Assembly (NCBI GenBank): GCA_016180435.1
Contig: JACPBG010000003.1
Span: forward strand, 77,791 to 141,790
DNA: 64,000 nt
Direction: 5' to 3'
Origin: Candidatus Sungiibacteriota bacterium
GTDB taxonomy: Bacteria > Patescibacteriota > Minisyncoccia > Sungbacterales > HO2-52-23
Made by a program: the position numbers and the translations under genes. Every line of letters starts with the position of its first letter. Positions within the stretch are counted from its first letter, which is position 1. Below are positions 3,212-63,757 of this stretch, piece by piece. The notes beneath the pieces were generated by a model that was given only the letters and a program-made list of their open reading frames with translations, searched no databases and was not told where the DNA came from.

Positions 3212-3645
3212 TTTGTCGGGGCGGTTTTCGTCCCGACTTTAAAAAAGACGCTCAGCGGAATAATCCTTAAATTTTTAAACCCTCGCTTCGCTAAGCGTAC
3301 GGGCCGCAACAAATTTTAGAATATTACATACTTCGTATTATCAGCGGCCCTCCCGATTCTTTTTAAAAGTCGGGACTCAACCGCGCATTCATGATGGGTG
3401 AGTATGGGGTTTGCTCATTGTATACGCTTTACTCCGCACCAAATTTTGACTGCCGTTTTAGTTTCAATCAAAGCAAGATGAACATCCATTCATGATATGA
3501 AATATTTACCGGTGGTTAAGCTTTAAGTACAGAAACTGTCAAAATTTTAGTGACGGGGCTTGCGGCGTTTTTTGTTTGTTTGACTTTTAGGGCCGTGACT
3601 ATATACTTAAAATAGTTTTTTTATTTTTCAAACAGAGGTGTTTTT

Positions 3646-6672: not shown

Positions 6673-7914
6673 GTGTCTCGTAACATCATCACAGCTTTAG
6701 ATGTCGGTACATCCACGGTGCAGGCCGTGATTGCCGAGAAACGCCGCGGCGAAGACAGCCCGCGTATTTTGGGCATTGGTATTTCTCCATCGCACGGGGT
6801 AAGGCGCGGAGTGGTGGTGGATTGCGATGATGCAAGTGCCGCAATCCAGGCCGCCATGGAAGATGCCCGAAAGGCAGCCGGAGTCCAAACGCGCTCGGTT
6901 TGGGTGACTGTGGGCGGCGCGCATGTTTCCGTTTCTTCTTCCCGTGGAATTATTGCGGTGTCGCGCGCGGACGGCGAAATTTCGCCCGAGGATGTGGGAC
7001 GCGCCATTGCCGCGGCCGAGACCTTTATCCCTAAAAATCCGAACCGTGAAATTTTGCATATGATTCCACGCGATTTCAGGGTGGATGCGGAGGCGGGTAT
7101 TAAAGATCCTATTGGAATGCATGGCGTGCGGCTGGAGGTGGATACCCTGATTATTGATTGTTCTCGGCCGTTTTTAAAAAATCTATTCAAATGTGTGGAG
7201 GGCGCCGGACTTAAAATCGTAGATTATGTGTTTTCGCCATTGGCCGCCGCTGAAGTTGTGCTTACCAAAAGGCAGAAAGAACTTGGATCAATGGTGCTGG
7301 ATATCGGAGGAGGTACCGCAAGCTTTATGGTGTTTGAGGAGGGGGTGCCGATACATGCCGGCGTTTTGCCGATTGGAGGCGGGCATATTACCAATGATGT
7401 TGCGATTGGGTTTCGTACAGATGTGGATGTGGCCGAAAAAATAAAGTTGGTATACGGGTCATGCCTTTCGGTGGAACTTCCCAAGCGCGAGAATATACGG
7501 CTGGCCGAATTTGTGGAGGGGGAATCGGCGCTTTATTCGCGTCGGGAACTTGCCGAGATTATAGAAGCCCGGCTCCGGGACATTTTTGAACTTCTGCAAA
7601 AGGAGCTTCGTAAAATTAATCGTGCAGCGCTTCTTCCGGGAGGAGTGGTGGTGGTGGGCGGATCAGCCGCCACCCGGGGCTTGATTGATTTGACCAAGCG
7701 CGAGATGAAACTGCCGGTTGCTATTGGTGTTCCGCAGGGATTTGAGATATCGGATGAAGAAAAGGCGTCCGCATTTTCCGCGGCTTTGGGTGTTGTGCGC
7801 TGGGCATATGCTAAAGGAGGCGGGGGCGATGGAGGGATTTGGTTGCGGGGCCGTAAATTAGGCGATTTTTCCGGAGACAAAATAATGAGCTGGTTTAAAT
7901 CGTTTTTACCATAG
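6673..7914 (+). CDS. ftsA: Cell division protein FtsA
   Basis: Actin-like ATPase: ITALDVGTS, LDIGGGTASF, GGGHITNDVA; C-terminal amphipathic helix. Start probably GTG/TTG at 6667-6673; the track ATG at 6625 lies inside the family D repeat. Confidence 0.8.
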   Translation: MSRNIITALDVGTSTVQAVIAEKRRGEDSPRILGIGISPSHGVRRGVVVDCDDASAAIQAAMEDARKAAGVQTRSVWVTVGGAHVSVSSSRGIIAVSRADGEISPEDVGRAIAAAETFIPKNPNREILHMIPRDFRVDAEAGIKDPIGMHGVRLEVDTLIIDCSRPFLKNLFKCVEGAGLKIVDYVFSPLAAAEVVLTKRQKELGSMVLDIGGGTASFMVFEEGVPIHAGVLPIGGGHITNDVAIGFRTDVDVAEKIKLVYGSCLSVELPKRENIRLAEFVEGESALYSRRELAEIIEARLRDIFELLQKELRKINRAALLPGGVVVVGGSAATRGLIDLTKREMKLPVAIGVPQGFEISDEEKASAFSAALGVVRWAYAKGGGGDGGIWLRGRKLGDFSGDKIMSWFKSFLP

Positions 7915-8083
7915 ATCATGAACAGAACGTCTTAGCAATTTTTGTCAGCTGCCTGGTTTTTCTGGGCGGTTTTGAATTATCTCGGACTCTTGTTGTTTAA
8001 ACTATGTGGATAAGGGGTGGAATATATGTGTTTTTGTCAACTTGCCAGAGAAATAAGTGTGTGCTACCTTGAGGGCGGAAATG

Positions 8084-21852: not shown

Positions 21853-22383
21853 GTCTTTACGAAATACGAATAGTTACGAATTTACGAATAATGTGCTATT
21901 TTATGTTTACTATACGTTTGAAATGGACATTTCGTGGCGCAAAATACGCAAGTATGCCCAATTTTAGTCCGCCCACCACGAGATATTGATATACTTGCTC
22001 GATGTGATTTTTCACGAATCTATCACCTTTTTTGATCTCTAATATTATCTTATCTTCAATTAGAAAATCCAGGAAGTTACTGCCGATTCGTTCATTCTGA
22101 TACTTGATGGGAAAATACGCTTGTTCTCGAAATTTTAATCCCGCATTTTTTAATGCAATCGCTACTGCGCGTTGATATACTTTTTCGCTGTTGCCAAATC
22201 CCAATTTATTGTATACGTCAAACAATATGCCTATTATTTGATAACTTAACTCCGGGTATACGAGATCTTCTCGTTTAAGCATGTGTCCCGCGTCCATTTT
22301 ATGAGATTATCATGGTTCGGAGATTTTTACAATAGTTAAGCGAGGATTCGTACATTCGTATTTAATTCGTATTTCGTAAAGAA
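21853..22383 (-). mobile_element. Putative autonomous family A element: TIR + GxxExxY/PD-(D/E)xK nuclease gene + TIR
   Basis: Left TIR tttacgaaatacgaatagttacgaatttacgaataat; right TIR (reverse complement) ctttacgaaatacgaattaaatacgaatgtacgaat; 133-aa nuclease ORF 21896..22297 in between. Confidence 0.6.
21896..22297 (-). CDS. GxxExxY-type PD-(D/E)xK nuclease-like protein
   Basis: GNSEKVY (G-x-x-E-x-x-Y) and ...FLDFLIEDKIILEIKKGD (D ... E-x-K). Paralog of 26509..26907. Confidence 0.7.
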   Translation of the reverse strand: MDAGHMLKREDLVYPELSYQIIGILFDVYNKLGFGNSEKVYQRAVAIALKNAGLKFREQAYFPIKYQNERIGSNFLDFLIEDKIILEIKKGDRFVKNHIEQVYQYLVVGGLKLGILAYFAPRNVHFKRIVNIK

Positions 22384-24852: not shown

Positions 24853-24957
24853 TGACCCCGTTAGAGATGCGGAACGAAATCACGTCAAAGTTTATATATG
24901 ATTAAAGAATACTCTCAGTATGTGTTTAGATGTAACCCAAATCTCTAACGCGGGGTT
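24853..24957. repeat. Family G ('ccccgttaga') element, copy 1 of a tandem pair
   Basis: tgaccccgttagagatgcgg ... atctctaacgcgggg. Confidence 0.7.
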
Positions 24958-25070
24958 GACCCCGTTAGAAAGAAACAGAGAATGCTTTTAATGCGGGAAT
25001 TGTTTGTTTTTACGAATAAAAATGGATTGCTGTTGCTACTATATTTGTTTCTCTCTAACGGGGTTGACCG
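24953..25070. repeat. Family G element, copy 2 of the tandem pair
   Basis: ggttgaccccgttagaaagaaacag ... tttctctctaacggggttgac. Confidence 0.75.
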
Positions 25071-25997: not shown

Positions 25998-26465
25998 ATG
26001 CGTAGAAAAAGGAAATTCACCAGAGAAATAATTCCGGATGCAAAATACAGCAATGTCGCGATTGCCAAATTTATCAACTATGTAATGCGCAAAGGGAAAA
26101 AGTCCACGGCGCAAAAAGTGGTGTATCGCGCCTTTGATGTGATTGAGAAAAAACATCAGCAGGATCCGCTGGCGGTTTTTGATCTGGCTATGAAAAATGC
26201 ATCTCCTTTGATGGAAGTGCGGCCGCGCCGGATTGGCGGAGCTACATATCAGGTGCCGCGTGAAGTCCGGCCCGGGCGTAAAATGGCCCTTACCTATCGC
26301 TGGATTATCGCGGCGGCGCGTTCCAAGAAAGGCAAACCCATGCATGTAAAATTGGCGGAGGAATTGATCGCGGCTTCCAAAAACGAGGGGATGGCGATTA
26401 AAAAGCGGATGGATATGCATAGGATGGCCGAGGCCAATAAAGCGTTTGCGCATTTCGCCTGGTAA
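25998..26465 (+). CDS. rpsG: 30S ribosomal protein S7
   Basis: MRRKRKFTREIIPDAKY...KKSTAQKVVYRAFD... Confidence 0.9.
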   Translation: MRRKRKFTREIIPDAKYSNVAIAKFINYVMRKGKKSTAQKVVYRAFDVIEKKHQQDPLAVFDLAMKNASPLMEVRPRRIGGATYQVPREVRPGRKMALTYRWIIAAARSKKGKPMHVKLAEELIAASKNEGMAIKKRMDMHRMAEANKAFAHFAW

Positions 26466-26938
26466 AATTACTACGAAGGTACGAATTTTTACGAACGTAC
26501 GAATAATTATGCGGGAAATAAAAAAGAAAGATTTATTATATCCTGATTTAAGCTATCAAGTGGTTGGTATTTTATTTGAAGTATTTAATGAACTCGGTTA
26601 TCAGTATCAGGAAAAATATTACCAAAGAGCGATCAGCAAAAGTTTGCATCTGGTAGGCATTCCTTTTCAGGAACAAATTATTTTTCCAATAGAATTTAAG
26701 GGTCAGAAGATTGGCCGGTATATCTTTGATTTTTTAGTTGATAATAAAATTGTTTTAGAAATAAAACGTGGTGACACTTTTTCACCTCAAGATATCCGAC
26801 AAACGATCGCCTACTTAAAAAGATCAAATTTACGACTAGGAATCCTTGCTCGTTTTTCAAGCAAGGGTCTTAAGTTCAAAAGAATAGTAAATATAATTGA
26901 TTCGTAATTTTCGTATTTATTCGTAACTTCGTAGTAAA
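26466..26938 (+). mobile_element. Putative autonomous family A-type element (TIR-nuclease-TIR) inserted between rpsG and fusA
   Basis: Left attactacgaaggtacgaatttttacgaacgtacgaataatt; right (reverse complement) tttactacgaagttacgaataaatacgaaaattacgaatc. The nuclease ORF stop lies inside the right TIR; the fusA ATG follows immediately. Confidence 0.6.
26509..26907 (+). CDS. GxxExxY-type PD-(D/E)xK nuclease-like protein
   Basis: YQYQEKYYQRA (GxxExxY region) and IFDFLVDNKIVLEIKRGD (D ... E-x-K). Paralog of 21896..22297. Confidence 0.7.
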   Translation: MREIKKKDLLYPDLSYQVVGILFEVFNELGYQYQEKYYQRAISKSLHLVGIPFQEQIIFPIEFKGQKIGRYIFDFLVDNKIVLEIKRGDTFSPQDIRQTIAYLKRSNLRLGILARFSSKGLKFKRIVNIIDS

Positions 26939-29071
26939 ATGCCAAGAGAATATCCTTTAGAGAGTACCAGAGATATCGGCATTATTGCCCATATTGATGC
27001 CGGAAAAACGACCGTAACCGAGCGGGTGCTTTTTTATACCGGCGTATCGCATAAAATCGGCGAGGTGCATGAGGGCGATACGGTGATGGATTGGATGGAG
27101 CAAGAGCGCGAAAGGGGAATTACTATTACGGCGGCCGCAACGAATGTGTTTTGGGTGCCGACGCATGTCGGAGAACTTAGAACTGAGAACTTAGAACTTA
27201 GAAAAAAGAACGAATACAGAATAAATATCATAGATACTCCGGGACATATTGATTTTACCGTGGAGGTTCAGCGCTCACTTCGGGTATTGGATGGCGCGGT
27301 GGTGGTTTTTGACGGAGTGGCCGGAGTTGAGCCGCAATCCGAAACCGTCTGGCGCCAAGCCGATAAATTTAAAGTTCCGCGCATGTGTTTTATAAATAAG
27401 CTTGACCGCATGGGCGCGTCATTTGAGCGCTCGCTCAATTCCATTTATGAGCGACTAACCCCGAATGCGGTTTCGGTGGCAATACCCATAGGACACGAAC
27501 AGGAACACGAAGGCGTGATTGACCTTATGCGCATGAAGTCCGTGAAGTTTCTGGGAGATAAAGGAGAAAAACTTGAATTTGTTGAGATACCCGAGAATTT
27601 GAAATCCTATGCCGAGGAATGGCGCCATAAAATGGTTGAAAAAATTTCGGAAACGGATGACGCGCTTACGGATAAATATCTGGAAGGCAAAGAGATGACT
27701 GTCGAGGAACTGCGTGGCGCTTTACGCCGCGCGACCATTGGATATCGGCTGGTTCCGGTATTTTGCGGATCGGCGCTTAAAAATAAAGGCGTGCAGTTGA
27801 TGCTGGACGGTGTGGTTGATTATCTGCCCTCTCCTTTGGATATGCCGCCGGTAAAAGGAACTCATCCCAAAACCGGTGCGGAAGAAATTCGCGAAGCGAA
27901 AGATGATGCGCCATTTGCCGCGCTTGCTTTTAAATTGCAAACCGATCCTTATGTGGGACAACTTACATATTTTAGGGTTTATTCGGGCATGCTTAAAGCC
28001 GGATCTTATGTTTTAAATTCGGTAAATGGAGATCAGGAGAGGGTGGGGCGGATTTTGCGCATGCATGCCAATACCCGCGAGGAACTGAAAGAAATCGGCG
28101 CCGGAAATATCGGTGCGATTGTCGGTCTTAAAAATACCCGTACCGGAGATACGCTTTGCGATCCGGAGCATCCGGTTGTGCTTGAAAAAATCGTATTTCC
28201 CGAGCCGGTGGTATCTTTGAAAATTGAGCCCAAGACCAAGGCTGACCAGGAAAAAATGGGACTGGCCCTGCGGCGTCTGGGCGAGGAGGACCCGACATTT
28301 CGCATTAAAGGCGACATTGAGACCGGTGATACCATTATTTCGGGTATGGGTGAACTTCATTTGGAAATTATTGTGGATCGCATGAAGCGCGAATTTTCCG
28401 TGGAGGCCAATGTGGGCCGGCCGCAGGTGGCTTATAAAGAAACCATTAAAAAAACCGCGGAAGCGGAAGGAAAATATATTCGTCAATCAGGCGGACGCGG
28501 ACAGTACGGACATGCGTGGCTTCGGGTTGAGCCGCGCGAGCGCGGAAAGGGATTTGAATTTCTTGACGAGATCAAAGGCGGTATAATTCCGCAAGAATAC
28601 ATTCCGGCGATTGAAAAAGGGATTAAGGAGGCCATGGAAAAAGGTGTTTTGGCGGGGTACCCACTGGTTGATATGGCGGTCGCGGTTTATGACGGATCAT
28701 ATCATGAAGTGGATTCGTCCGAGGCCGCATTCAAAATCGCGGGTTCCATGGCTTTGCAGGAGTGCGTTAAGCGCGCGGGACTTGTGCTGCTTGAGCCGAT
28801 TATGAAAGTGGAGGTTGTGACTCCGGAGCAGTTTCTGGGCGAGGTTACCGGGGATTTGAATTCCAAGCGTGCGCGGATTGAAGAAATGTCCGAGCGCGGC
28901 CTGGGAATTAAGGTGATTGACTGCAAAGTTCCGCTTTCGGAAATGTTCGGATATGTTACGACTCTTCGTTCCTTGACGCAAGGCAGAGCCAGTTTTACTA
29001 TGGAATTTGATCACTACGAGGAAGTCCCGAATAATATTGCGCAGCTTATAATTGAAGGGAAGCGGCAGTGA
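26939..29071 (+). CDS. fusA: Elongation factor G
   Basis: [23 protein letters not shown] and all five EF-G domains. Contains a family F-encoded insertion ([15 protein letters not shown]) between G2 and G3. Confidence 0.95.
27172..27212. repeat. Family F heptad-repeat half-element, in-frame inside fusA
   Basis: gagaacttagaactgagaacttagaacttagaaaaaagaac. Confidence 0.7.
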
Positions 29072-29278
29072 TGCCAATCCAATGCGAATTTAATGTTTAC
29101 CCCGTTAGATAATAACCTTTTTTAAAAAGATGTGCTGTTGTTGTAAAAACCCTTTTAAAAATTTTATTGGTTGTCAAGAGATATCTAACGGGGCGAGTCT
29201 GGCGAATTGCGAATACTAAACACAAGATTTTATTAGCAATTTGTAGATTAGCATTTCATTTGTAGATTTGCATCATTG
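29066..29278. repeat. Family B element interrupted by a nested family G element
   Basis: cagtgatgccaatccaatgcgaatttaatg | G insert | tctggcgaattgcgaat...gcatttcatttgtagatttgcatca. Confidence 0.75.
29098..29193. repeat. Family G element nested in the B element
   Basis: tttaccccgttagataataacc ... agatatctaacggggcg. Confidence 0.7.
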
Positions 29279-29566
29279 CGTGCGAAGCACAAATAAAAAA
29301 TAGCGGCGTGGGACCGCATTAAGGCAAAAAGAGCGAGTCAATTTTAAACTTTAGTATATACACCCAACCGGCGCCTGCCACAATAATTGCAATAAAAATA
29401 AGAAAAGCGCCCCAGTCGAATTCGTAGATAAAACGTACGAGCGAAAATAAAATTTCAGAGATAGGACCTCGATCCGGCAGGGTGGGTAAAGAATATTCGT
29501 GCATAGCATTCTTTGTAATATATTATAGAGATCTATATTATGGACATATCAAAACTAAAAAATCTT

Positions 29567-29679
29567 GTCAACCCCGTTAGAGAGAAACAAACACATCAGT
29601 TATTGGGGAAAAGGTTATGTGTTAAAATAAAGGCGCTGTTTGCATGATTATCATTCCCTGTTTCTTTCTAACGGGGTCA
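29567..29679. repeat. Family G element (inserted after a promoter-like ttgtcaa)
   Basis: gtcaaccccgttagagagaaacaaac ... ctgtttctttctaacggggtcaa. Confidence 0.75.
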
Positions 29680-29723
29680 AGGCGAATCTTGACTTTATAT
29701 CAAAGATGGGATAAGTTTTTAAT

Positions 29724-29942
29724 ATGTCAATGGTCATAGAAAAAAAATATCACAAAAGTATTAGTGAGGTTTCGCGAAAGATGGGAATTAGAGAAAATGA
29801 TCTAGTGGGTCGTGCACTCGCTCTTTATTTAGATAGCGCAAAAAAAATTCTTGATGTAGAAAAAGAATTTAAGGCATGGGACGTTTTGAGCGATGAGTCG
29901 TTGGTTGGACTCGCTAAGCGTGTTCCAAGGCGGTCAATATGA
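29724..29942 (+). CDS. Putative antitoxin (partner of the MazF/PemK-like toxin)
   Basis: 72-aa ORF overlapping the toxin start by 4 nt (ATGA). Confidence 0.45.
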   Translation: MSMVIEKKYHKSISEVSRKMGIRENDLVGRALALYLDSAKKILDVEKEFKAWDVLSDESLVGLAKRVPRRSI

Positions 29943-30265
29943 AAAAGGGTGAAATTTGGTTGGTAGAAATTCCGGGCATTGACGGCCATGAACAGCGGGG
30001 ATTCCGCCCCGCGATTTTTATTGCGGACACCAAGACGGGCGTGGCCATAATTATTCCATGCACTTCTAATTTGCAAGCGCTTCGTTTCCCATTTACTATT
30101 CGTATTGAATCATCTCGCAGTAATGGATTAAATGAATTATCGGTTGCCCTGGTTCTTCAGCTTCGTGCTATTGATAAAAAGAGATTATTGAGAAAAATAG
30201 GACAACTTGATAATTCAGTTCTTAAAGAACTTGACGTGGTGATACGTAATCTTTTAGATTTATAG
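29939..30265 (+). CDS. MazF/PemK-family toxin endoribonuclease
   Basis: MKKGEIWLVEIPGIDGHEQRGFRPAIFIA has the typical PemK/MazF N-terminal signature. Confidence 0.75.
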   Translation: MKKGEIWLVEIPGIDGHEQRGFRPAIFIADTKTGVAIIIPCTSNLQALRFPFTIRIESSRSNGLNELSVALVLQLRAIDKKRLLRKIGQLDNSVLKELDVVIRNLLDL

Positions 30266-30382
30266 AGGACCAGTTTCGCGTACCCAAATAAAAATAGCGG
30301 CACGAGTCGAGGTAACCCATCGTGCATTCATTCTCGCTCTCCAATAAATAAGAACTACTATGGATATATCAAAATTAAAAAA

Positions 30383-30412
30383 TCTTGTCAAATATATATA
30401 GGAGATGGTATA
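30383..30412 (+). promoter_or_regulatory. Sigma70-like promoter for the hicBA cassette
   Basis: TTGTCA-N18-TATATT (cttgtcaaatatatataggagatggtatatt). The same ttgtcaa motif precedes the mazEF cassette. Confidence 0.4.
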
Positions 30413-30420
30413 TTGAAGAT

Positions 30421-30675
30421 ATGAAAAAACGACAAAAAATTAAAAAAGAAATCGCCACTTTTAATGCGGTATTTTTGGAAGAAAGCGATGGAGGATACAG
30501 CGTAAGTGTGCCTGCTTTGCCGGGCTGTTTTTCACAGGGTGATACCTTTGAAGCGGCCGTGGAAAATATAAAAGAGGCCATAGAACTTTATCTTGAAGAT
30601 GAATCTAAAGAGATTGATTTTTTGAAAGTTCGCCCTAAAAAAGAATTCATGGTACCAGTTGAACTTTATGCCTAA
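30421..30675 (+). CDS. hicB: HicB-family antitoxin
   Basis: FLEESDGGYSVSVPALPGCFSQGDTFEAAVENIKEAIELYLE matches the HicB/UPF0150 signature. Confidence 0.7.
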   Translation: MKKRQKIKKEIATFNAVFLEESDGGYSVSVPALPGCFSQGDTFEAAVENIKEAIELYLEDESKEIDFLKVRPKKEFMVPVELYA

Positions 30676-30895
30676 ATTGCCGCAGATTTCGGGAAAAGAG
30701 ATGGGGCGGGTTTTGGCTCGCCTCGGTTTTATATTCAAAAGCCAGAAAGGAAGTCATATGAAATTCATTCGCTTGCATGACGGCGCAAAAGAAATTATAG
30801 TAGTACCAAATCATAAAACGCTTCGTAAAGGAACATTTAGCGGCATATTAAAGCAGCTTAACATCACCTTTGAAAAATTACGCGAGCTGATGTAA
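30668..30895 (+). CDS. hicA: HicA-family toxin
   Basis: MPKLPQISGKEMGRVLARLGFIFKSQKGSHMKF matches the HicA/YcfA signature. Confidence 0.7.
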   Translation: MPKLPQISGKEMGRVLARLGFIFKSQKGSHMKFIRLHDGAKEIIVVPNHKTLRKGTFSGILKQLNITFEKLRELM

Positions 30896-30927
30896 TAAAA
30901 AATAGCGGTGCGGGTTCGTACACACAT

Positions 30928-31230
30928 ATGAGTGAAAAAATGGAAAAATTGAAAAGCGAAATATCTCCCGAAGAATATAAAAAAAAGCTTCTCACTGTTG
31001 CCGGCGAACTTTTCAAAGGGAAAGTCCCAAATTATTTCCTTGAATATCTTGATAATGATGAAATTGAAAGTGCCAGAGTATCACTTTTAGGCGCGATTGA
31101 TGCGTTCGTTTTTGGAAAAAATATATCAGATGAAGAAGCAAAAACAAAATATGAAATTCTGGGTTTTGATCCGGAGGAAGCAAGTAGGATCAGAAACTTA
31201 AGCAAAGCCAATAAAAGAAGATCTCAATAA
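30928..31230 (+). CDS. Hypothetical protein
   Basis: 100-aa ORF preceded by the same aaataaaaaatagcgg leader repeat. Confidence 0.4.
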   Translation: MSEKMEKLKSEISPEEYKKKLLTVAGELFKGKVPNYFLEYLDNDEIESARVSLLGAIDAFVFGKNISDEEAKTKYEILGFDPEEASRIRNLSKANKRRSQ

Positions 31231-31293
31231 TCAAATTTATTTTGCATTTTATTTTTTACGTTTTGTAGCAGAACAGCGATAAATTTTAAAAAT

Positions 31294-31593
31294 ATGGAGT
31301 GGGTAAAACTCAAAAATTTGGTAAAACAAAATGGAGATAAGTTTGTGTTGGTTGAAAATGGGGAGCCGGAAATTGTGATGATGTCTTTTCATGAATATCA
31401 GAAACTCGCTAATCATAATGCGAATACGGCGAATTTGCGTACGAATGTCACGAATCGCGAAGACGACAACTATTATATGGATGTATCCGCGGGCCGTTTG
31501 CCGGAAACCGAATTTGTATCACCCCACGAGTTAGAAGCGCCCGGACTTCCGGTGCGGCTTGAGGATATCCGGCTGGATGATCTGCCCATTTGA
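31294..31593 (+). CDS. Phd/YefM-like antitoxin-domain protein
   Basis: NGEPEIVMMSFHEYQKL resembles the Phd/YefM N-terminus; C-terminal extension; no toxin partner found. Confidence 0.45.
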   Translation: MEWVKLKNLVKQNGDKFVLVENGEPEIVMMSFHEYQKLANHNANTANLRTNVTNREDDNYYMDVSAGRLPETEFVSPHELEAPGLPVRLEDIRLDDLPI

Positions 31594-31605
31594 GGCATTT
31601 TTTTC

Positions 31606-31635
31606 GGCATTTGACAATGAACCGGCTATTTTGCT
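31606..31635 (+). promoter_or_regulatory. Sigma70-like promoter upstream of tuf
   Basis: TTGACAatgaaccggctattttgcTAAACT (-35 TTGACA, 18-nt spacer, -10 TAAACT). Confidence 0.45.
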
Positions 31636-31791
31636 AAACTTAATTTTGTATTGTGAATTTTATCAATAGACCTACTGCACAAAGATTTTCGTCACGAAAT
31701 TTAAGAATTTCGAGGCAAAATCGCTGAACAAACTTTGCGGCCTATCGCTTAGATAAGCCAAAAAGTAATGTGCGGGTATATAAAAGAAAAT

Positions 31792-32991
31792 ATGGCAGAA
31801 GCCAAAAAATTCGAGCGGACCAAGCCGCATTTAAACGTGGGTACCATAGGGCATGTGGACCATGGTAAAACCACCCTAACCGCGGCCATAACCAAAGTAT
31901 TGAGTTTAAAAGGACTTCCTTCGCGCGTGGAGTCGGTGGATCAGATTGATAATGCTCCCGAAGAAAAAGCGCGTGGAATCACGATCGCGCTTCATCATTC
32001 CGAATACGAATCGGAAAAGCGGCATTACGCCCATATTGATGCCCCCGGACACGCCGACTATATTAAAAACATGATTACCGGCGCTGCCCAGATGGACGGC
32101 GCTATTCTGGTCGTGTCCGCAACTGACGGCCCCATGCCGCAAACCCGCGAGCACATACTTCTTGCTCGCCAAGTAGGAGTGCCGGCTGTTGTGGTGTTTT
32201 TGAACAAATGCGATGCCGTGGAAGATAAAGAACTGATTGATTTGGTTGAAGCCGAAGTTCGCGAACTTTTAAAAAAATATGAATTCCCAGGAGATCAGAC
32301 TCCCATTATACGCGGCTCGGCATTAAAAGCCCTGGACGCAAAATCAGCCGATGATGAATGGGCCAAACCGATAATAGAACTGGTTAGTGTGCTTGATTCT
32401 TATGTTCCGGAGCCTGTGCGCGAAGTTGACAGGCCGTTCCTCATGCCGGCCGAAGACGTTTTTTCAATCGAGGGCCGCGGTACGGTGGTTACCGGCAGGA
32501 TTGAGCGCGGCAAAGTTAAATTGAATGAAGAAGTAGAAATTATCGGTATGCGCGATACGCAAAAGACGATTGTTACCGGAATTGAAATGTTTAATAAATC
32601 GCTGGATGAAGGTATTGCGGGAGATAATGCCGGCATACTTTTGCGCGGACTCAAAAAAGAAGATGTGGAGCGCGGACAAGTGCTTGCCAAGCCGGGATCC
32701 GTAACGCCGCACACGGATTTTGAATCAGAGGTCTATATTTTGACCAAAGAAGAAGGAGGACGCCATACCCCGTTTTTCTCGGGATATAAGCCGCAATTTT
32801 ATATCCGCACCACCGATGTTACGGGGGAGGTTACGCTTGCCCAGGGAACCGAAATGGTAATGCCCGGAGATACTGTTAAATTCATAGTAAAACTCATTGT
32901 GCCGGTGGCTTTAGAGGAAAAACAGCGTTTCGCCATCCGGGAGGGAGGGAAAACAGTTGGAGCCGGAGTGGTTACGAAAATAGTGAAGTAA
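31792..32991 (+). CDS. tuf: Elongation factor Tu
   Basis: [22 protein letters not shown]; ATG at 31792. Confidence 0.95.
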
Positions 32992-33442: not shown

Positions 33443-33466
33443 TTTCCGCTCGCTGATGCGGTTTCT

Positions 33467-33588
33467 GCCATTTCATTTTTTCCAAGGCTTCGGCCGCTCC
33501 TGCGGCGGCCTGCAGGGTCGGCGAGACACTCGCGCGTTTCGCGCGAGACCAAGCTGTCTCGCCTCCCATTGCAAAAAATGAAATGCAA
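33467..33588 (+). repeat. Family E structured element (copy E2)
   Basis: Outer stem atttcatttttt/aaaaaatgaaat; ggccgctcctgcggcggcc; tgcagggtcgg; stem cgagaca/tgtctcg; inner hairpin ctcgcgcgtttcgcgcgag; accaagc; cctcccattg. Confidence 0.75.
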
Positions 33589-33681
33589 AAACCGTTTTGG
33601 CTCGCTTAGGGGTTTTTAGCGTAGCGCTTCGTCGAGCCAAGTTCGATTTCGCGCCGTTTACGTTAATAAGATGTAATAAAC

Positions 33682-33852
33682 ATGAATTTAGCCAAATGTG
33701 ATAGATGTAAAAAAGTAATCCGAAAGCCTTTGGAAAAAGGAAACATTTCAGTGCGGACTTACGGTATTCAGTGGGAAGGTGTAGATCTGTGTTCTCGCTG
33801 TTCTCCCGCATTTTTGCGATTTTTTAATAAATATGCTAAGGTAAAAAAATAG
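33682..33852 (+). CDS. Small zinc-ribbon protein (56 aa, below track threshold)
   Basis: MNLAKCDRCKKVIRKPLEKGNISVRTYGIQWEGVDLCSRCSPAFLRFFNKYAKVKK; CxxC...CxxC. Confidence 0.3.
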   Translation: MNLAKCDRCKKVIRKPLEKGNISVRTYGIQWEGVDLCSRCSPAFLRFFNKYAKVKK

Positions 33853-33889
33853 AAGCAAAGGTCGCAAGAAAATATAATTTTTCAAAAAT

Positions 33890-34135
33890 ATGCCAGGAGA
33901 AGGAGCACCGAAAAAATCAAAACAGGATTTACTTGATGAATATCGTATATTGATGGAGGTGTTATTAAAAGATCAGCCTGGAGCAGATTATCATCCTCTC
34001 GATGTTTATGAATTGACGGCTCGACAAGCTGAGTTGCAGAAAGAATTAGGAGAGGAGGCGCGTCCTATAGATGAGGAGTTTGCTGCCAAGAGAAGTGCGT
34101 TTATTGAAACTCTTTCTAAAGAAGGTGAGAAATGA
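33890..34135 (+). CDS. Hypothetical protein
   Basis: 81-aa acidic ORF in the gap between rpsJ and rplC. Confidence 0.35.
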   Translation: MPGEGAPKKSKQDLLDEYRILMEVLLKDQPGADYHPLDVYELTARQAELQKELGEEARPIDEEFAAKRSAFIETLSKEGEK

Positions 34136-34365
34136 TTTTGTTGAAGATCTGAATCTTTCAAGCCGTGTCCATTTAGAAGTGGGCATCCTTGAGCGATTCA
34201 CTCCACATATAACTTTCGTTGAATCTTGCGTACGAAAAATCGGCAATAACGAAAATTATGTGTGGGGTTCAAATCGTTCACTCCCAAGTTGTCAGGGATA
34301 GCTTTAGTTGTAAAGCATGGAATTAAATACTTTTTAGTCCTTTCGTTAAAAAATTTAATCCCATT

Positions 34366-34392
34366 TCGGTGCAGACCGGGGGATCCGGTTTT
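34366..34392 (+). terminator. Hairpin + T-run
   Basis: gaccgggggatccggtttttgttt. Confidence 0.5.
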
Positions 34393-34402
34393 TGTTTACC
34401 TT

Positions 34403-34543
34403 TACCCCGTTAGAACGCCGCCGACTCCTGCTCGCCTCGCTAAAGCTACGGCGAAGCGGGTCGGTGGTAACGAACGATAGAGATAGCCAATGGGAGTGTA
34501 ATGCTCCCATTGGCGGATCGTGAAGCGCCCGTTCTAACGGGGT
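34403..34543. repeat. Family G element with GC-rich interior
   Basis: tttaccccgttagaacgccgccgactcctgctcgcc...gcgcccgttctaacggggt. Confidence 0.7.
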
Positions 34544-34624
34544 TTACGAAATACTAATTGTTACGAATATACGAATCCAAATCGGTTTTATTAGTAAATT
34601 CGTACTGATTCGTATTTCGTAAAG
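34543..34624. repeat. Family A element
   Basis: tttacgaaatactaattgttacgaatatacgaatcc...attagtaaattcgtactgattcgtatttcgtaaag, then ttt + ATG of rplC. Confidence 0.8.
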
Positions 34625-34627
34625 TTT

Positions 34628-50255: not shown

Positions 50256-50493
50256 CAATTCCTAATTGCCTAATTGTCTAATTTCTAATAAAATGCCCAA
50301 TAAAGAAATTAAGAATTAAGGCCTTAGAAATTTTATTAGGTTCACCCCGTTAGAAAGAAACAGAAGGTATTTTTAGTGCAGAAATTATCTATTTTTATGA
50401 ATAAAAACGAGTTGCAGTTGCTACTATATTTGTTTATTTCTAACGGGGTAAATTAGGAATTAGGTGAATTTGGAATTTTAGTTCTTGCTCGCG
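50256..50493. repeat. Family D element containing a nested family G element
   Basis: caattcctaattgcctaattgtctaatttctaataaaatgcc...ttttattaggt | G insert | aaattaggaattaggtgaatttggaattttag. Compare the intact D copy at 55030-55145. Confidence 0.8.
50343..50458. repeat. Family G element nested in the D element
   Basis: caccccgttagaaagaaacag ... tttatttctaacggggt. Confidence 0.75.
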
Positions 50494-57126: not shown

Positions 57127-57238
57127 GTCAACCCCGTTAGAGAGAAACAGGGATTCTCATTTATTTTCAAATATCTCTGTGTTTATAAAAACCTTTTGTG
57201 TGCAAATCACCGTGTTTGTTTCTTTCTAACGGGGTCAA
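57127..57238. repeat. Family G element
   Basis: gtcaaccccgttagagagaaacaggg ... gtttgtttctttctaacggggtcaa. Confidence 0.75.
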
Positions 57239-57340: not shown

Positions 57341-57476
57341 GGGCGAGGTAATGCTGTTTTGAGACAATGGGAGGCGAGATTTGCTTGGTTCCGACGTCAG
57401 TCGGAAAATTTCGTCGACCCTTAGCGAGCGCGCCGCCGGAGCGCGCGAGTCGTGTCTCAAAACAGCATTGCCGAGT
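57341..57476 (-). repeat. Family E-like structured element (copy E5, reverse orientation)
   Basis: Outer stem gctgttttgagaca/tgtctcaaaacagc; reverse complement holds gcgcgctccggcggcgcgc hairpin, ccgactgacgtcgg hairpin, accaagc, cctcccattg. Confidence 0.6.
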
Positions 57477-63642: not shown

Positions 63643-63757
63643 TCATGAATCCCGTTAGAAGTTTATGTCTAAATATTTCACGGGATTGGTTAATAGTCAA
63701 AGTTCTCAATTTCAAATTTGATTTTGGAGTTAAAGGACTTCTAACGGGATGAATACA
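63643..63757. repeat. Family G-variant element ('tcccgttagaag') whose right TIR contains the atpD start codon
   Basis: atgaatcccgttagaagtttatg ... ggacttctaacgggATGaat. Confidence 0.65.

What the first reader, a model, noticed from the sequence alone, without database searches (positions are those of the whole stretch)
29279..31600. Toxin-antitoxin cassette island inserted inside the str operon (between fusA and tuf), each cassette with a repeated leader
fusA and tuf are normally adjacent. Here 2.3 kb intervenes, holding a mazE-like/MazF-PemK pair, HicB/HicA, a 100-aa ORF and a Phd-like antitoxin domain. Each cassette is preceded by the same leader: aaataaaaaatagcgg(c/t)(g/a)cg(g/a)g at 29289, 30284 and 30897, then tatgga(c/t)atatcaaaa(c/t)taaaaaatcttgtcaa carrying a -35-like TTGTCA. 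The first leader is ~180 bp longer and includes a small membrane ORF. The unit structure resembles cassette arrays or serial duplication. tuf then has its own TTGACA-N18-TAAACT promoter.
Basis: partly seen in the sequence, partly recalled or inferred. Interest (0 to 1): 0.65.

Follow-up and report, generated by a model that had tools for sequence, protein, structure and literature searches.

The report
Variable toxin-antitoxin array between fusA and tuf
In this tiny-genome (Sungbacteria) bacterium, the gap between two core translation genes holds a strain-variable stack of toxin-antitoxin pairs and small genes, and the "repeated leader" is the cut-off start of a resident gene left at the same base next to each unit, so new DNA has repeatedly been joined at one fixed point.

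Summary
The sequence observation largely holds. MazF/PemK, HicB and HicA pass Pfam. Block X (AAATAAAAAATAGCGG plus a hairpin) occurs three times. Block Y (33 nt) occurs twice, not three times.

The interpretation needs revision. Y is not a cassette leader. It is the first 32 nt, plus upstream bases, of the resident Phd-like gene: intact genes in relatives begin with exactly this DNA. About 12 such stubs from at least 7 arrays all end at the same bond (…CTTGTCAA|) and are followed by at least 7 unrelated sequences. On the opposite strand the same 32 nt form TTGACA-17-TATATC, a promoter-like site for divergent small ORFs. X is the terminator-like end of those ORFs.

The Phd-like gene is not a cassette. 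It sits between fusA and tuf across many Patescibacteria.

Close relatives carry different cargo between the same junctions, or no cargo apart from a 10-nt scar. Part of the extra sequence between stub 1 and mazE is a 105-nt MITE with a TCAA duplication.

Best reading: an accretion array built by repeated joining at position +32 of the resident gene, plus cassette swaps between Y and X. No recombinase was found in the window, so the enzymology is inferred.

Verdict: a new variant of a known kind, of moderate to high interest.

The parts
26939..29071 (+). fusA (EF-G), the left core flank
   Evidence: 710-aa ORF. 60-72% identical to EF-G of other bacteria. The C-terminal 220 aa are 96-97% identical to the closest relatives, lineage T.
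29100..29193 (.). MITE-like hairpin element, copy without flanking duplication
   Evidence: Inverted ends CCCCGTTAGATA/TATCTAACGGGG (I13). Member of an 8-copy family in the window.
29291..29317 (-). Block X1: intrinsic-terminator-like site of the minus-strand 61-aa ORF
   Evidence: Terminator scan on the minus strand: GCGGTCCCACGCCGC followed by TATTTTTTAT. The X1-orf61-Y1 block is conserved in relative R (79% over 276 nt).
29319..29504 (-). 61-aa small ORF with a hydrophobic (membrane-helix-like) C-terminal stretch, divergent from the stub
   Evidence: ORF. A 72%-identical 61-aa homologue lies at the same position, just downstream of fusA, in relative R. No Pfam or NCBIfam family.
29525..29571 (+). 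Block Y1: stub of the Phd-like gene (upstream bases plus ATG at 29540 to +32). On the minus strand it reads TTGACA(29571-29566)-17-TATGTC.
   Evidence: 1 mismatch in 32 to the intact gene start of L104/L105. Homology with R ends exactly at 29571.
29572..29680 (.). MITE-like insertion (105 nt) plus the second copy of the TCAA target duplication
   Evidence: 18-bp inverted ends. Folds at z = -4.8. Relative S has the uninterrupted Y|mazE junction.
29724..29942 (+). Putative MazF antitoxin (72 aa, no family assignment)
   Evidence: 4-nt overlap with mazF. Co-inherited with MazF in S at 86% amino-acid identity. No Pfam, NCBIfam or PDB match.
29939..30265 (+). MazF/PemK toxin
   Evidence: PF02452, E 2e-22, full length. 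271 homologues at E <= 1e-10. The 100% hit is named Candidatus Sungbacteria.
30286..30326 (-). Block X2: terminator-like hairpin of an almost completely deleted minus-strand module (orf85 type)
   Evidence: A-run plus GCACGA…TCGTGC hairpin. By eye, the GCGGCACGAGTCGAG core matches the X next to orf51/orf85 in T and R (sequences). The MAFFT alignment places the W copy poorly.
30345..30391 (+). Block Y2: second stub of the Phd-like gene (ATG at 30360 to +32). Its TTGTCA also serves as the -35 of a TTGTCA-18-TATATT match in front of hicB.
   Evidence: 1 mismatch in 32 to the intact L104/L105 start. Promoter scan scores 10/12. Homology with the T-occupied allele starts here.
30421..30675 (+). HicB antitoxin
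   Evidence: PF15919, E 1e-12. 83-84% identical in T-occupied and L105.
30668..30895 (+). HicA toxin
   Evidence: PF07927, E 2e-15. 80-84% identical in T-occupied and L105.
30893..30925 (-). Block X3: terminator-like site overlapping the hicA stop codon
   Evidence: Minus-strand terminator scan hit at 30925-30908. 15/15 identity with X1.
30928..31230 (+). 100-aa ORF of unknown function, travelling with hicBA
   Evidence: 54% identical ORF at the same place in T-occupied. No Pfam, NCBIfam, PADLOC or PDB assignment.
31294..31593 (+). Resident Phd-like gene (the target gene), intact, with a divergent 5' end (MEWVKLKNLVKQ)
   Evidence: Weak PF02604 match. Family alignment shows a conserved N-terminus and an invariant C-terminal tail. 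Syntenic between fusA and tuf in at least 12 Patescibacteria loci plus the Sungbacteria relatives. The model's best structural matches are YefM/Phd/RelB antitoxins, though none is significant.
31611..31640 (+). Promoter-like site upstream of tuf
   Evidence: TTGACA-18-TAAACT, 10/12, with TG.
31792..32991 (+). tuf (EF-Tu), the right core flank
   Evidence: ORF. N-terminal 203 aa are 94% identical to lineage T.

Best explanation
The fusA-tuf spacer of this Sungbacteria genome holds an accretion array.

The resident gene next to tuf encodes a small Phd-like protein. In simple relatives it is paired head-to-head with a small opposite-strand ORF. That ORF's promoter-like site (TTGACA-17-TATATC) lies inside the first 32 nt of the Phd-like coding sequence, and its terminator-like site is block X.

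New DNA has been joined again and again at one fixed bond, right after nt +32 (…AAAAATCTTGTCAA|). Each incoming unit carries cargo: a type II TA operon, usually with X and a small ORF. Each incoming unit also ends with its own copy of the gene's upstream region and first 32 nt. The gene is therefore rebuilt, and the previous 5' end is left behind as a stub. Stubs pile up to the left, each in front of a cassette, which is why they look like a shared 'leader'.

In the window the order is: X1-orf61(-)-stub1 | MITE, mazEF, X2, deleted ORF, stub2 | hicBA, X3, orf100 | intact Phd-like gene.

Cargo between a stub and the next X can also be swapped.

Shown: the anatomy, the identity of Y with the gene start, the common break point, the polymorphism and the TA domain calls.

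Inferred:
- Joining is site-specific or Campbell-type.
- The stub region transcribes the cargo.
- The TA pairs stabilise the array or defend against phage.
- The enzyme acts in trans and is encoded elsewhere.
For: 1. Y equals the gene start. Intact Phd-like genes in L104/L105 begin ATGGATATATCAAAACTAAAAAATCTTGTCAA and continue ACAGAACGGTGATAAG. The family consensus N-terminus is MD(I/L/F)SK(I/L)KNLVKQNGDKF.

2. Common break point. About 12 stubs all end after GTCAA: window x2, R x2, S x2, T-occupied x2, L105 (a 20-nt remnant), L082/L084, and two lineage-specific stubs in L101. They are followed by at least 7 unrelated sequences: mazEF, hicBA, DUF4258-like/DUF2283, a ParE/RelE-like pair, orf137, an 11-nt linker plus a new start, and an unknown sequence. 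No stub is longer than +32. Left ends vary.

3. Homology between genomes breaks at X and Y.
- W 29297-29571 matches R and ends at the last base of Y1.
- W 29688-30304 matches S, from just after Y to inside X2.
- W 30355-31593 matches T-occupied, starting at Y2.

4. Clean comparisons.
- R has orf85-stub|linker-phd, whereas T-occupied has orf85(truncated)-stub|hicBA-X-orf99-stub|linker-phd. This is a unit of 'cargo plus one stub' inserted at the junction.
- Between orthologous orf61-stub and X-orf85 modules, R carries DUF4258-like/DUF2283 and W carries mazEF. This is a cassette swap.

5. Population polymorphism. The same Phd-like protein (P0122, 92% identical to the window's) occurs with no cargo (fusA-72/146 nt-phd-tuf, L092-L095 and L097) and with hicBA plus orf99 (L098/L099). 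The cargo-free allele keeps a ~10-nt scar matching the stub end.

6. The minus-strand ORFs look like complete transcription units.
- Their start codons lie 56-72 nt from the -35 hexamer.
- Shine-Dalgarno-like motifs are present upstream of the start codons, by my reading of the sequences.
- X scores as a minus-strand terminator.

7. The array is not an assembly artefact. An identical 2437-nt contig (window 29260-31696) was assembled independently, and that contig is recorded in 11 samples.
Against: - No integrase, transposase or other recombinase was found among 40 window ORFs scanned with Pfam, and none appears in the fetched relatives' loci.
- No circular or excised form was seen.
- The fixed break point coincides with the outer edge of the minus-strand -35 hexamer. 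Selection to keep that promoter could therefore explain why stubs are never shorter, although it does not explain why they are never longer.
- In R and T the last stub is followed by only an 11-nt linker and a complete new gene start. This requires a cargo-less unit or a later deletion.
- The window's own Phd-like gene has no recognisable stub directly upstream.
- X is also conserved, and it is found next to plus-strand orf100 (and orf99 in T). A pure 'replacement 5' end' model does not predict this.
- All relatives are metagenome contigs, so the order of events is inferred from a few genomes.
Confidence: 0.6

Rival explanations
1. Homologous recombination only. After DNA uptake, modules are shuffled between strains by RecA-type crossovers in the short conserved blocks (Y about 32-60 nt, X about 25-40 nt) and in fusA, phd and tuf. 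All stubs descend from a few ancient accidents, and no site-specific activity exists.
For: - ComEC (10220-11770) and a PilB-like ATPase (16330-17541) are encoded in the window.
- Homology breakpoints fall inside X and Y.
- The R/W cargo swap between orthologous flanks is what a double crossover in Y and X would give.
- No recombinase was found.
- Most array-bearing genomes have an intact-gene 5' end that differs from the stubs at 9-10 of 32 bases, or a stub trimmed to 20 nt. This is the pattern expected if stub-gene recombination deletes arrays.
Against: - At least 7 unrelated sequences are joined to the stub at exactly the same bond, including lineage-specific stubs in L101.
- Homologous recombination can move existing junctions but cannot create new ones at one nucleotide.
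- No stub extends beyond +32, although longer stubs should be neutral.
Confidence: 0.25
2. X plus Y is a common regulatory leader (promoter with a -35 TTGTCA) that belongs to each TA cassette, as in a cassette array whose cassettes each bring their own leader.
For: - In front of hicB the stub's TTGTCA pairs with TATATT at 18 nt, a 10/12 match with TG.
- In R the DUF4258-like gene starts 17 nt after the stub and has no promoter of its own. Transcription from the stub region or from further upstream is therefore needed.
Against: - Y is 32/32 identical to the start of intact Phd-like genes.
- X lies downstream of the preceding gene and scores as a terminator on the minus strand only.
- The -10 partner is absent or differently placed at the other junctions.
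- The mazEF upstream region, including a TTGACT -35-like box, is conserved between W and S, which suggests mazEF has its own promoter.
- The third unit has no Y.
- The same X…Y pair brackets unrelated minus-strand ORFs.
Confidence: 0.1
3. Local serial duplication. The X-ORF-Y unit was duplicated in tandem in this genome, and TA genes later landed between the copies.
For: There are two Y copies (31 of 33 bases identical) and three X copies within 1.6 kb, and none elsewhere in the 64-kb window.
Against: - Unit 2 is not a copy of unit 1. Its X core matches the orf85/orf51-type module of R and T (by eye; sequences), and its Y-proximal part matches S.
- The stubs are as similar between genomes as within one.
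- Relatives carry the same junctions with other cargo.
Confidence: 0.04

Closest known systems
Tandem accretion of integrative elements and their decayed remnants (CIMEs) at one att site in the end of a conserved gene (ICESt1/ICESt3-type; reviewed in PMC5704250)
   Same: - Successive elements sit in tandem at one site inside the end of a conserved gene.
- Each junction carries a copy of that gene end.
- The gene stays intact because the incoming element supplies a replacement end.
- Decayed elements lack integration genes.
- TA genes are typical cargo.
   Different: - Here the target is the 5' end of a protein-coding gene (32 nt plus upstream bases) rather than a 3' end or a tRNA.
- Units are only about 0.05-1 kb.
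- No integrase was seen in any array or in the 64-kb window.
- A second conserved boundary (X, a terminator-like hairpin) also delimits modules.
- The host is a Patescibacteria genome and the site lies inside the str operon.
Chromosomal integron cassette arrays with TA cassettes (abstract of PMC13108822; other details from general knowledge)
   Same: - Ordered, strain-variable arrays of small gene cassettes at one insertion point.
- The insertion point lies next to a promoter-bearing region.
- TA pairs are interspersed and are thought to stabilise the array.
   Different: - No intI gene in the window.
- The junctions are not imperfect-palindrome attC sites, and no GTTRRRY core is present.
- Modules alternate in orientation, and several appear to carry their own promoter and terminator.
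- The repeated element is a piece of a resident coding sequence.
Type II toxin-antitoxin modules MazEF (PemIK) and HicAB
   Same: - The toxin domains are clearly recognised (PF02452, PF07927), as is the HicB antitoxin domain (PF15919).
- Each pair is a compact two-gene operon with overlapping genes.
   Different: - The MazF partner (72 aa) matches no known antitoxin family.
- Activity is untested.
- The pairs are embedded between essential translation genes.
Phd/YefM antitoxins
   Same: - The N-terminal 50 residues of the resident protein give a weak PF02604 match.
- The structure model is α-β-β-α, and its best structural matches are YefM, Phd and RelB-type antitoxins, though none is significant.
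   Different: - No Doc/YoeB-type toxin partner is adjacent.
- The gene is fixed between fusA and tuf across Patescibacteria.
- It has an invariant acidic-hydrophobic tail (…RLEDIRLEDLPI) behind a disordered linker.
- It behaves like a housekeeping gene of unknown function, not like a TA component.
MITEs that sit next to promoters (for example Correia elements of Neisseria; from general knowledge)
   Same: - About 100-nt elements with terminal inverted repeats and short target duplications.
- Many copies in intergenic regions.
- Several copies abut -35-like TTGAC boxes.
   Different: - The terminal sequence is different (CCCCGTTAGA…).
- The duplication is 4 nt (TTGA/TCAA/TTTA/TGAA).
- The interiors are very variable.
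- No parent transposase was identified.

Membership tests
MazEF/PemIK type II TA | Toxin with a PemK/MazF domain | tested here: met
   PF02452, E 2e-22, covering residues 2-105 of 108.
MazEF/PemIK type II TA | Small antitoxin gene immediately upstream in the same operon | tested here: met
   The 72-aa ORF at 29724-29942 overlaps mazF by 4 nt. The same pair is present in relative S at 86-87% identity.
MazEF/PemIK type II TA | Antitoxin belongs to a recognised antitoxin family (MazE/AbrB, RHH and so on) | tested here: not met
   No Pfam, NCBIfam, PADLOC or PDB sequence match.
MazEF/PemIK type II TA | Toxin is an endoribonuclease neutralised by the antitoxin | not testable with these tools
   Needs expression and rescue assays.
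HicAB type II TA | HicA toxin domain and HicB antitoxin domain in adjacent genes | tested here: met
   PF07927 at E 2e-15 and PF15919 at E 1e-12. The genes overlap by 8 nt, with hicB first.
Phd/YefM antitoxin of a TA pair | Phd_YefM domain above the family threshold | tested here: inconclusive
   PF02604 at 21 bits against a cut-off of 29.8. The model's N-domain has pLDDT 71-78. The top Foldseek hits are YefM/Phd/RelB, but E >= 0.26.
Phd/YefM antitoxin of a TA pair | Cognate toxin (Doc, YoeB or RelE type) encoded next to it | tested here: not met
   The downstream gene is tuf. The upstream 100-aa ORF has no toxin domain and is absent in most relatives.
Phd/YefM antitoxin of a TA pair | Patchy, mobile distribution typical of TA loci | tested here: not met
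   It holds the same position between fusA and tuf in at least 12 diverse Patescibacteria loci and in all Sungbacteria relatives examined.
Integron | intI integrase gene next to the array | tested here: not met
   No Phage_integrase or other recombinase family among 40 window ORFs. None appears in the gene calls of the relatives' loci.
Integron | attC sites (imperfect palindromes with R''/L''…L'/R' and a GTTRRRY core) after each cassette | tested here: not met
   - X and Y are not inverted repeats of each other.
- Both are A-rich on the same strand.
- The junction TTGTCAA (reverse complement TTGACAA) does not fit GTTRRRY.
This is my inspection of the sequences; no attC covariance model was run.
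Tandem accretion array (CIME-like) | [quoted passage not shown] | tested here: met
   The stubs are 26-32 of 32 bases identical to the start of intact Phd-like genes.
Tandem accretion array (CIME-like) | Target gene remains intact after insertion | tested here: met
   Full-length Phd-like ORFs are present in W, R, T-occupied and L105; the S contig ends inside the gene, so only its 5' part is seen.
Tandem accretion array (CIME-like) | A site-specific recombinase of matching specificity (in cis or in trans), with excision as a circle | not testable with these tools
   Only 64 kb of this genome is available, and no read-level data are available.
pdif/Xer module arrays | Modules bounded by 28-bp XerC/XerD sites in alternating orientation | tested here: not met
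   The two junction types are different sequences and have the same polarity.
MITE | Terminal inverted repeats, small size, no ORF, multiple copies | tested here: met
   8 copies of 94-138 nt with ends CCCCGTTAGA(R)AGAAACA. 17 matches to the 10-mer against 3 expected by chance.
MITE | Target-site duplication and an empty site in a relative | tested here: met
   Identical 4-nt flanks in 7 of 9 copies. S has TTGTCAA|GCGTTG… with no element where W has the MITE.

The most novel reading that the evidence does not exclude
The 5' end of the Phd-like gene is the capture site of a previously undescribed, integron-like gene-acquisition system of Patescibacteria. In this reading a trans-acting recombinase, or a nicking enzyme that cuts 3' of TCAA, joins small self-contained modules (TA pairs, small secreted or membrane ORFs) at position +32. 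This places them behind a resident promoter inside the most highly expressed operon, with a second hairpin site (X) acting as the other module boundary.
Probability: 0.2. Interest if true: 0.85.

Novelty: new variant of a known kind. Interest (0 to 1): 0.6.

Why it matters
Patescibacteria have tiny, streamlined genomes, and little is known about how they gain and lose genes. Here a core, highly expressed operon contains a hot spot that differs between strains whose EF-G C-terminal region (220 aa compared) is at least 95% identical. The junction anatomy is unusually legible: truncated copies of one gene start are all cut at one bond.

- The 32-nt stub is a concrete handle for finding more such arrays.
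- Arrays found this way can be used to look for the responsible enzyme by phylogenetic profiling.
- Read-level data could then show whether excision and integration actually occur.

The work also reclassifies a supposed antitoxin as a conserved resident of the str operon. Its invariant acidic tail suggests a housekeeping partner that could be tested.

Tried and rejected
- Known RNA. Rfam found nothing in or near the island, either with gathering thresholds over the whole window or at E <= 5 on 28900-31900 and on L082.
- Y as a purely non-coding promoter element. I considered this when copies lacking the ATG turned up (L082, S copy 2). I rejected it as the origin of Y once intact genes with the identical 32 nt were found.
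- Y as a translated leader peptide. The ATG is lost in 2-3 copies, so it is not conserved as an ORF.
- A type I TA (small hydrophobic toxin plus antisense RNA). Most of the minus-strand ORFs are unrelated to each other, and some are soluble, 108-147 aa.
- attC or pdif sites. The junctions do not fit either.
- An exact look-up of EF-G, EF-Tu and the 99-aa Phd-like protein found nothing.
- A viral-contig scan for Y found nothing.
- Stubs in distant Patescibacteria, searched with each locus's own gene start (up to 9 mismatches in 33), were not found.
- PADLOC, NCBIfam and PDB sequence searches added nothing for the 72-aa, 100-aa and 61-aa ORFs.
- Multiple alignments of whole X…Y units were uninformative outside the two blocks.
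- I could not derive a clean core or target duplication from the T empty and occupied junctions.


Full report
**Setting**

The window is a Patescibacteria chromosome segment. The MazF protein is 100% identical to one named Candidatus Sungbacteria. The gene order is rpsL, rpsG (25998-26465), a PDDEXK_3 ORF (26446-26907), fusA (26939-29071), the island, tuf (31792-32991) and rpsJ. The island has lower G+C (about 0.31-0.45) than fusA and tuf (about 0.47-0.54). An independently assembled public contig is identical to window 29260-31696 and is recorded in 11 samples, so the island is not an assembly artefact.

**Checking the observation**

Pfam confirms MazF/PemK (E 2e-22), HicB (1e-12) and HicA (2e-15). 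The last ORF is only weakly Phd-like (E 3e-4, below the cut-off). The 72-aa, 100-aa and 61-aa ORFs match nothing.

Block X (AAATAAAAAATAGCGG followed by a short G+C hairpin) occurs at 29291, 30286 and 30894 and nowhere else in this form in 64 kb. Block Y (TATGGAYATATCAAAAYTAAAAAATCTTGTCAA) occurs twice, at 29539 and 30359. The weak third match, at 31290, is the true start of the Phd-like gene.

The X1-to-Y1 interval is 175 nt longer than X2-to-Y2 and contains a 61-aa ORF with a hydrophobic, membrane-helix-like C-terminal stretch, on the minus strand. The tuf promoter-like match is present.

**What X is**

On the minus strand, X1 and X3 score as intrinsic terminators: a hairpin followed by TATTTTTT. 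X2 has the same layout with a longer loop. On the plus strand there is no T-run after any of them, and no plus-strand terminator-like site lies in an intergenic part of the island. Read-through from fusA towards tuf is therefore not obviously blocked. This is an inference.

**What Y is**

This is the key result. A 26-nt core of Y was found in three metagenome contigs of another organism that share no other DNA similarity with the window. That first suggested a mobile or strongly selected element.

Relatives were then reached through proteins of the island:
- The 61-aa ORF has a 72%-identical homologue. It lies at the same place, just after fusA and on the opposite strand, in lineage R (L085-L090).
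- An 87%-identical MazF leads to lineage S (L091).
- The Phd-like protein has a 92%-identical relative in lineage T (L092-L099), and further relatives in L100-L108.

The alignment of 40 family members gives the consensus N-terminus MD(I/L/F)SK(I/L)KNLVKQNGDKF. That is what Y encodes (MDISKLKNLVK). In L104 and L105 the intact gene starts with exactly the Y sequence and runs on into …GTCAA|ACAGAACGGTGATAAG. Y is therefore a truncated copy, a stub, of the resident gene's upstream bases plus its first 32 nt.

**The common break point**

A search with the 32-mer across all held sequence lists intact genes and stubs. The stubs are:
- window x2, R x2, S x2 and T-occupied x2;
- a 20-nt remnant in L105;
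- L082/L084;
- two lineage-specific stubs seen by eye in L101.

Every one stops after …GTCAA. What follows is unrelated from case to case:
- the mazEF upstream region (W and S);
- hicBA (W, T and L105);
- a DUF4258-like/DUF2283 pair (R; DUF4258 is weak at E 0.017, and DUF2283 comes from the collection's own annotation);
- an antitoxin-like ORF plus a ParE/RelE-like gene with an in-frame stop (S);
- orf137 (L101);
- an 11-nt linker followed by a complete new gene start (R and T);
- an unknown sequence (L082).

No stub runs beyond +32, whereas the left ends of the stubs vary.

**The other strand**

The reverse complement of the stub reads TTGACA, 17 nt, then TATATC (or TATGTC, or TATATT). In every array a minus-strand ORF starts 56-72 nt from that hexamer and ends at an X block, and a Shine-Dalgarno-like motif precedes most of the starts (my reading).

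In the simple relatives L104 and L107 this ORF is the head-to-head neighbour of the intact Phd-like gene, only 26-38 nt away. Its promoter-like site must therefore lie inside the first codons of that gene.

The minus-strand ORFs are diverse:
- orf61 in W and R;
- orf85 in R, truncated to orf51 in T and almost wholly deleted in W;
- a fast-evolving orf108/109/110 group in S, L105 and L104 (29-43% identity);
- orf115 and orf147, which look lipoprotein-like by eye;
- orf144.

**Arrays, in fusA-to-tuf orientation**

| Lineage | Order of elements |
|---|---|
| W (the window) | MITE, X1-orf61(-)-stub \| MITE, mazEF, X2, deleted ORF, stub \| hicBA, X3, orf100(+) \| phd |
| R | X-orf61(-)-stub \| DUF4258-like, DUF2283, X-orf85(-)-stub \| 11 nt, phd |
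| S | X-orf108(-)-stub \| mazEF, X-orf115(-)-stub \| relBE-like, X-orf147(-) \| phd |
| T-occupied | X-orf51(-)-stub \| hicBA, X-orf99(+)-stub \| 11 nt, phd |
| T cargo-free | fusA, 72 or 146 nt, phd |
| L105 | orf67, 20-nt stub \| hicBA, X-orf109(-) \| phd |
| L104 | X-orf110(-) \| phd |

Homology between genomes starts and stops at the blocks:
- W 29297-29571 matches R at 79% and ends at the last base of the stub.
- W 29688-30304 matches S at 86%, from just after the stub into X2.
- W 30355-31593 matches T-occupied at 76%, beginning at stub 2.

Two comparisons are especially clean:
- Relative to R, T-occupied has 'hicBA-X-orf99-stub' inserted exactly between the orf85 stub and the 11-nt linker.
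- Between orthologous orf61-stub and X-orf85 modules, R and W carry different TA pairs.

The cargo-free T allele retains about 10 nt (AAATCTTACA) that align with the end of a stub. It is probably a deletion derivative rather than a virgin site.

**The extra sequence after stub 1**

Directly after stub 1 lies a 105-nt element with 18-bp inverted ends (CCCCGTTAGAGAGAAACA), flanked by TCAA on both sides. It belongs to a family with 8 copies in the window; the 10-mer gives 17 matches against 3 expected by chance. Seven of 9 copies have identical 4-nt flanks, and the element folds well (z = -4.8). S has the uninterrupted stub|mazE junction, so this copy is an insertion.

**The Phd-like gene**

It is not a cassette. 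A homologous small gene lies just upstream of tuf in at least 12 diverse Patescibacteria loci, where the fusA-tuf gap ranges from 71 to 6641 nt and holds assorted cargo. In the non-Patescibacteria loci of the same search the gap is 12-225 nt.

A profile of the family finds 546 cluster representatives at E <= 1e-3. The model shows an α-β-β-α N-domain (pLDDT 71-78), a disordered linker, and a better-ordered invariant tail GLPVRLEDIRLEDLPI. The best structural matches are YefM, Phd and RelB-type antitoxins, but none is significant. No toxin partner is adjacent.

**Mechanism**

The anatomy matches tandem accretion at an att-like site in the end of a conserved gene, as described for integrative elements and their decayed remnants (PMC5704250). 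There are differences:
- The target is a 5' end.
- The units are very small.
- No recombinase is present in the arrays, nor among 40 window ORFs scanned.

I infer that joining happens at or next to +32, and that each unit carries one copy of the gene start. A Campbell-type crossover in the 32-60-nt stub would give the same product. X and Y then also serve as short portable homologies for cassette swaps after DNA uptake; ComEC and a PilB-like ATPase are encoded in the window.

The creation of at least 7 different junctions at one bond is the main argument that homologous recombination alone is not enough. The main caveat is that the break point coincides with the outer edge of the minus-strand -35 hexamer.

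In four of the five array-bearing genomes the intact gene's 5' end differs from the stubs at 9-10 (S not counted) of 32 bases. In L105 the stub is trimmed to 20 nt. Either would reduce array loss by stub-gene recombination. This is an inference.

The function of the TA pairs, whether array stabilisation or phage defence, is also inferred, by analogy with TA cassettes in chromosomal integrons (abstract of PMC13108822).

**Literature**

Full-text searches found no description of TA arrays between fusA and tuf in Patescibacteria, and nothing linking Sungbacteria with toxin-antitoxin systems.

**Verdict**

- What is there is a strain-variable accretion array at a fixed point in the 5' end of a conserved resident gene.
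- It is a new variant of known accretion or cassette systems, and the joining activity is unidentified.

Noticed in passing
window 24856-24953, 24960-25063, 29100-29193, 29572-29676, 34405-34542, 50345-50448, 57132-57234, 63650-63749: A MITE-like family, 94-138 nt long, with inverted ends CCCCGTTAGA(R)AGAAACA and very variable interiors. Seven of 9 copies have 4-nt direct flanks (TTGA, TCAA, TTTA or TGAA). Several copies abut -35-like TTGAC boxes. Copies also sit right after the Phd-like gene in lineages T and R. No parent transposase was seen.
   Followed up: partly
window 31294-31593; L065, L016, L011, L007, L053, L041, L008, L037, L020, L048, L004, L022, L009, L039: A small Phd-like protein is a conserved resident between fusA and tuf across Patescibacteria. 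In Sungbacteria it has an invariant tail, GLPVRLEDIRLEDLPI; more distant members end in …EDLPF. A profile of the family finds 546 50%-identity clusters. The tail resembles short acidic-hydrophobic docking tails (general knowledge), so a translation-related partner is conceivable.
   Followed up: partly
window 26446-26907 and 21896-22297 (minus strand): A PD-(D/E)XK_3 ORF is wedged between rpsG and fusA (G+C 0.33), and a 50%-identical paralogue lies 4 kb upstream. Relatives have a different ORF (129 or 196 aa) or nothing at the rpsG-fusA junction, so this is a second variable spot in the same operon.
   Followed up: partly
window 57343-57430, 3223-3384, 14178-14388; L085 (reverse complement) 7856-7935; L091 1-94; L098 309-475; L104 about 690-800: A second repeated palindromic element (…CGCTCACTAAGGGTCGG…) occurs several times in the window. 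In R, T-occupied and L104 it lies directly downstream of fusA, at the left edge of the array; in S it lies at the left end of the contig, where fusA is not covered.
   Followed up: no
L101 540-700 and L100 about 6990-7130: The last 19 codons of fusA are duplicated after an insertion of about 90 nt. This appears to be an insertion into the 3' end of fusA that carries a replacement gene end, mirroring what is seen at the 5' end of the Phd-like gene.
   Followed up: no
window 33443-34627: The rpsJ-rplC gap is 1.2 kb. It holds small ORFs (56 and 81 aa; the 81-aa ORF has no Pfam family, the 56-aa ORF was not scanned) and a MITE copy. Relatives have other small ORFs there. This is a third variable spacer in the ribosomal gene cluster.
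   Followed up: no
L018 8001-13374; also L004, L007, L008, L011, L015, L016, L023, L032: In L018 the fusA match spans 5.4 kb instead of 2.1 kb, which suggests a large insertion (an intein or intron?) inside fusA. The long matches in the other eight loci (about 2.9-3.1 kb) are explained by the tblastn match running on into tuf.
   Followed up: no
window 29218-29236 and 29239-29273: Left of X1 there is a tandem direct repeat, ATTTGTAGATT(A/T)GCAT x2. There is also an inverted 10-nt match (ACAAGATTTT) to the stub core. This may be a decayed inverted stub or chance.
   Followed up: no
L082 340-660, L084 8320-8640 (minus strand): In another organism, an X-like terminator, about 120 nt without an ORF, and a stub (ATG lost) cut at the same bond lie between a small ORF and a PIN-TRAM/radA cluster. 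No fusA or tuf is in view, so stub-bearing modules also occur away from the str operon.
   Followed up: partly
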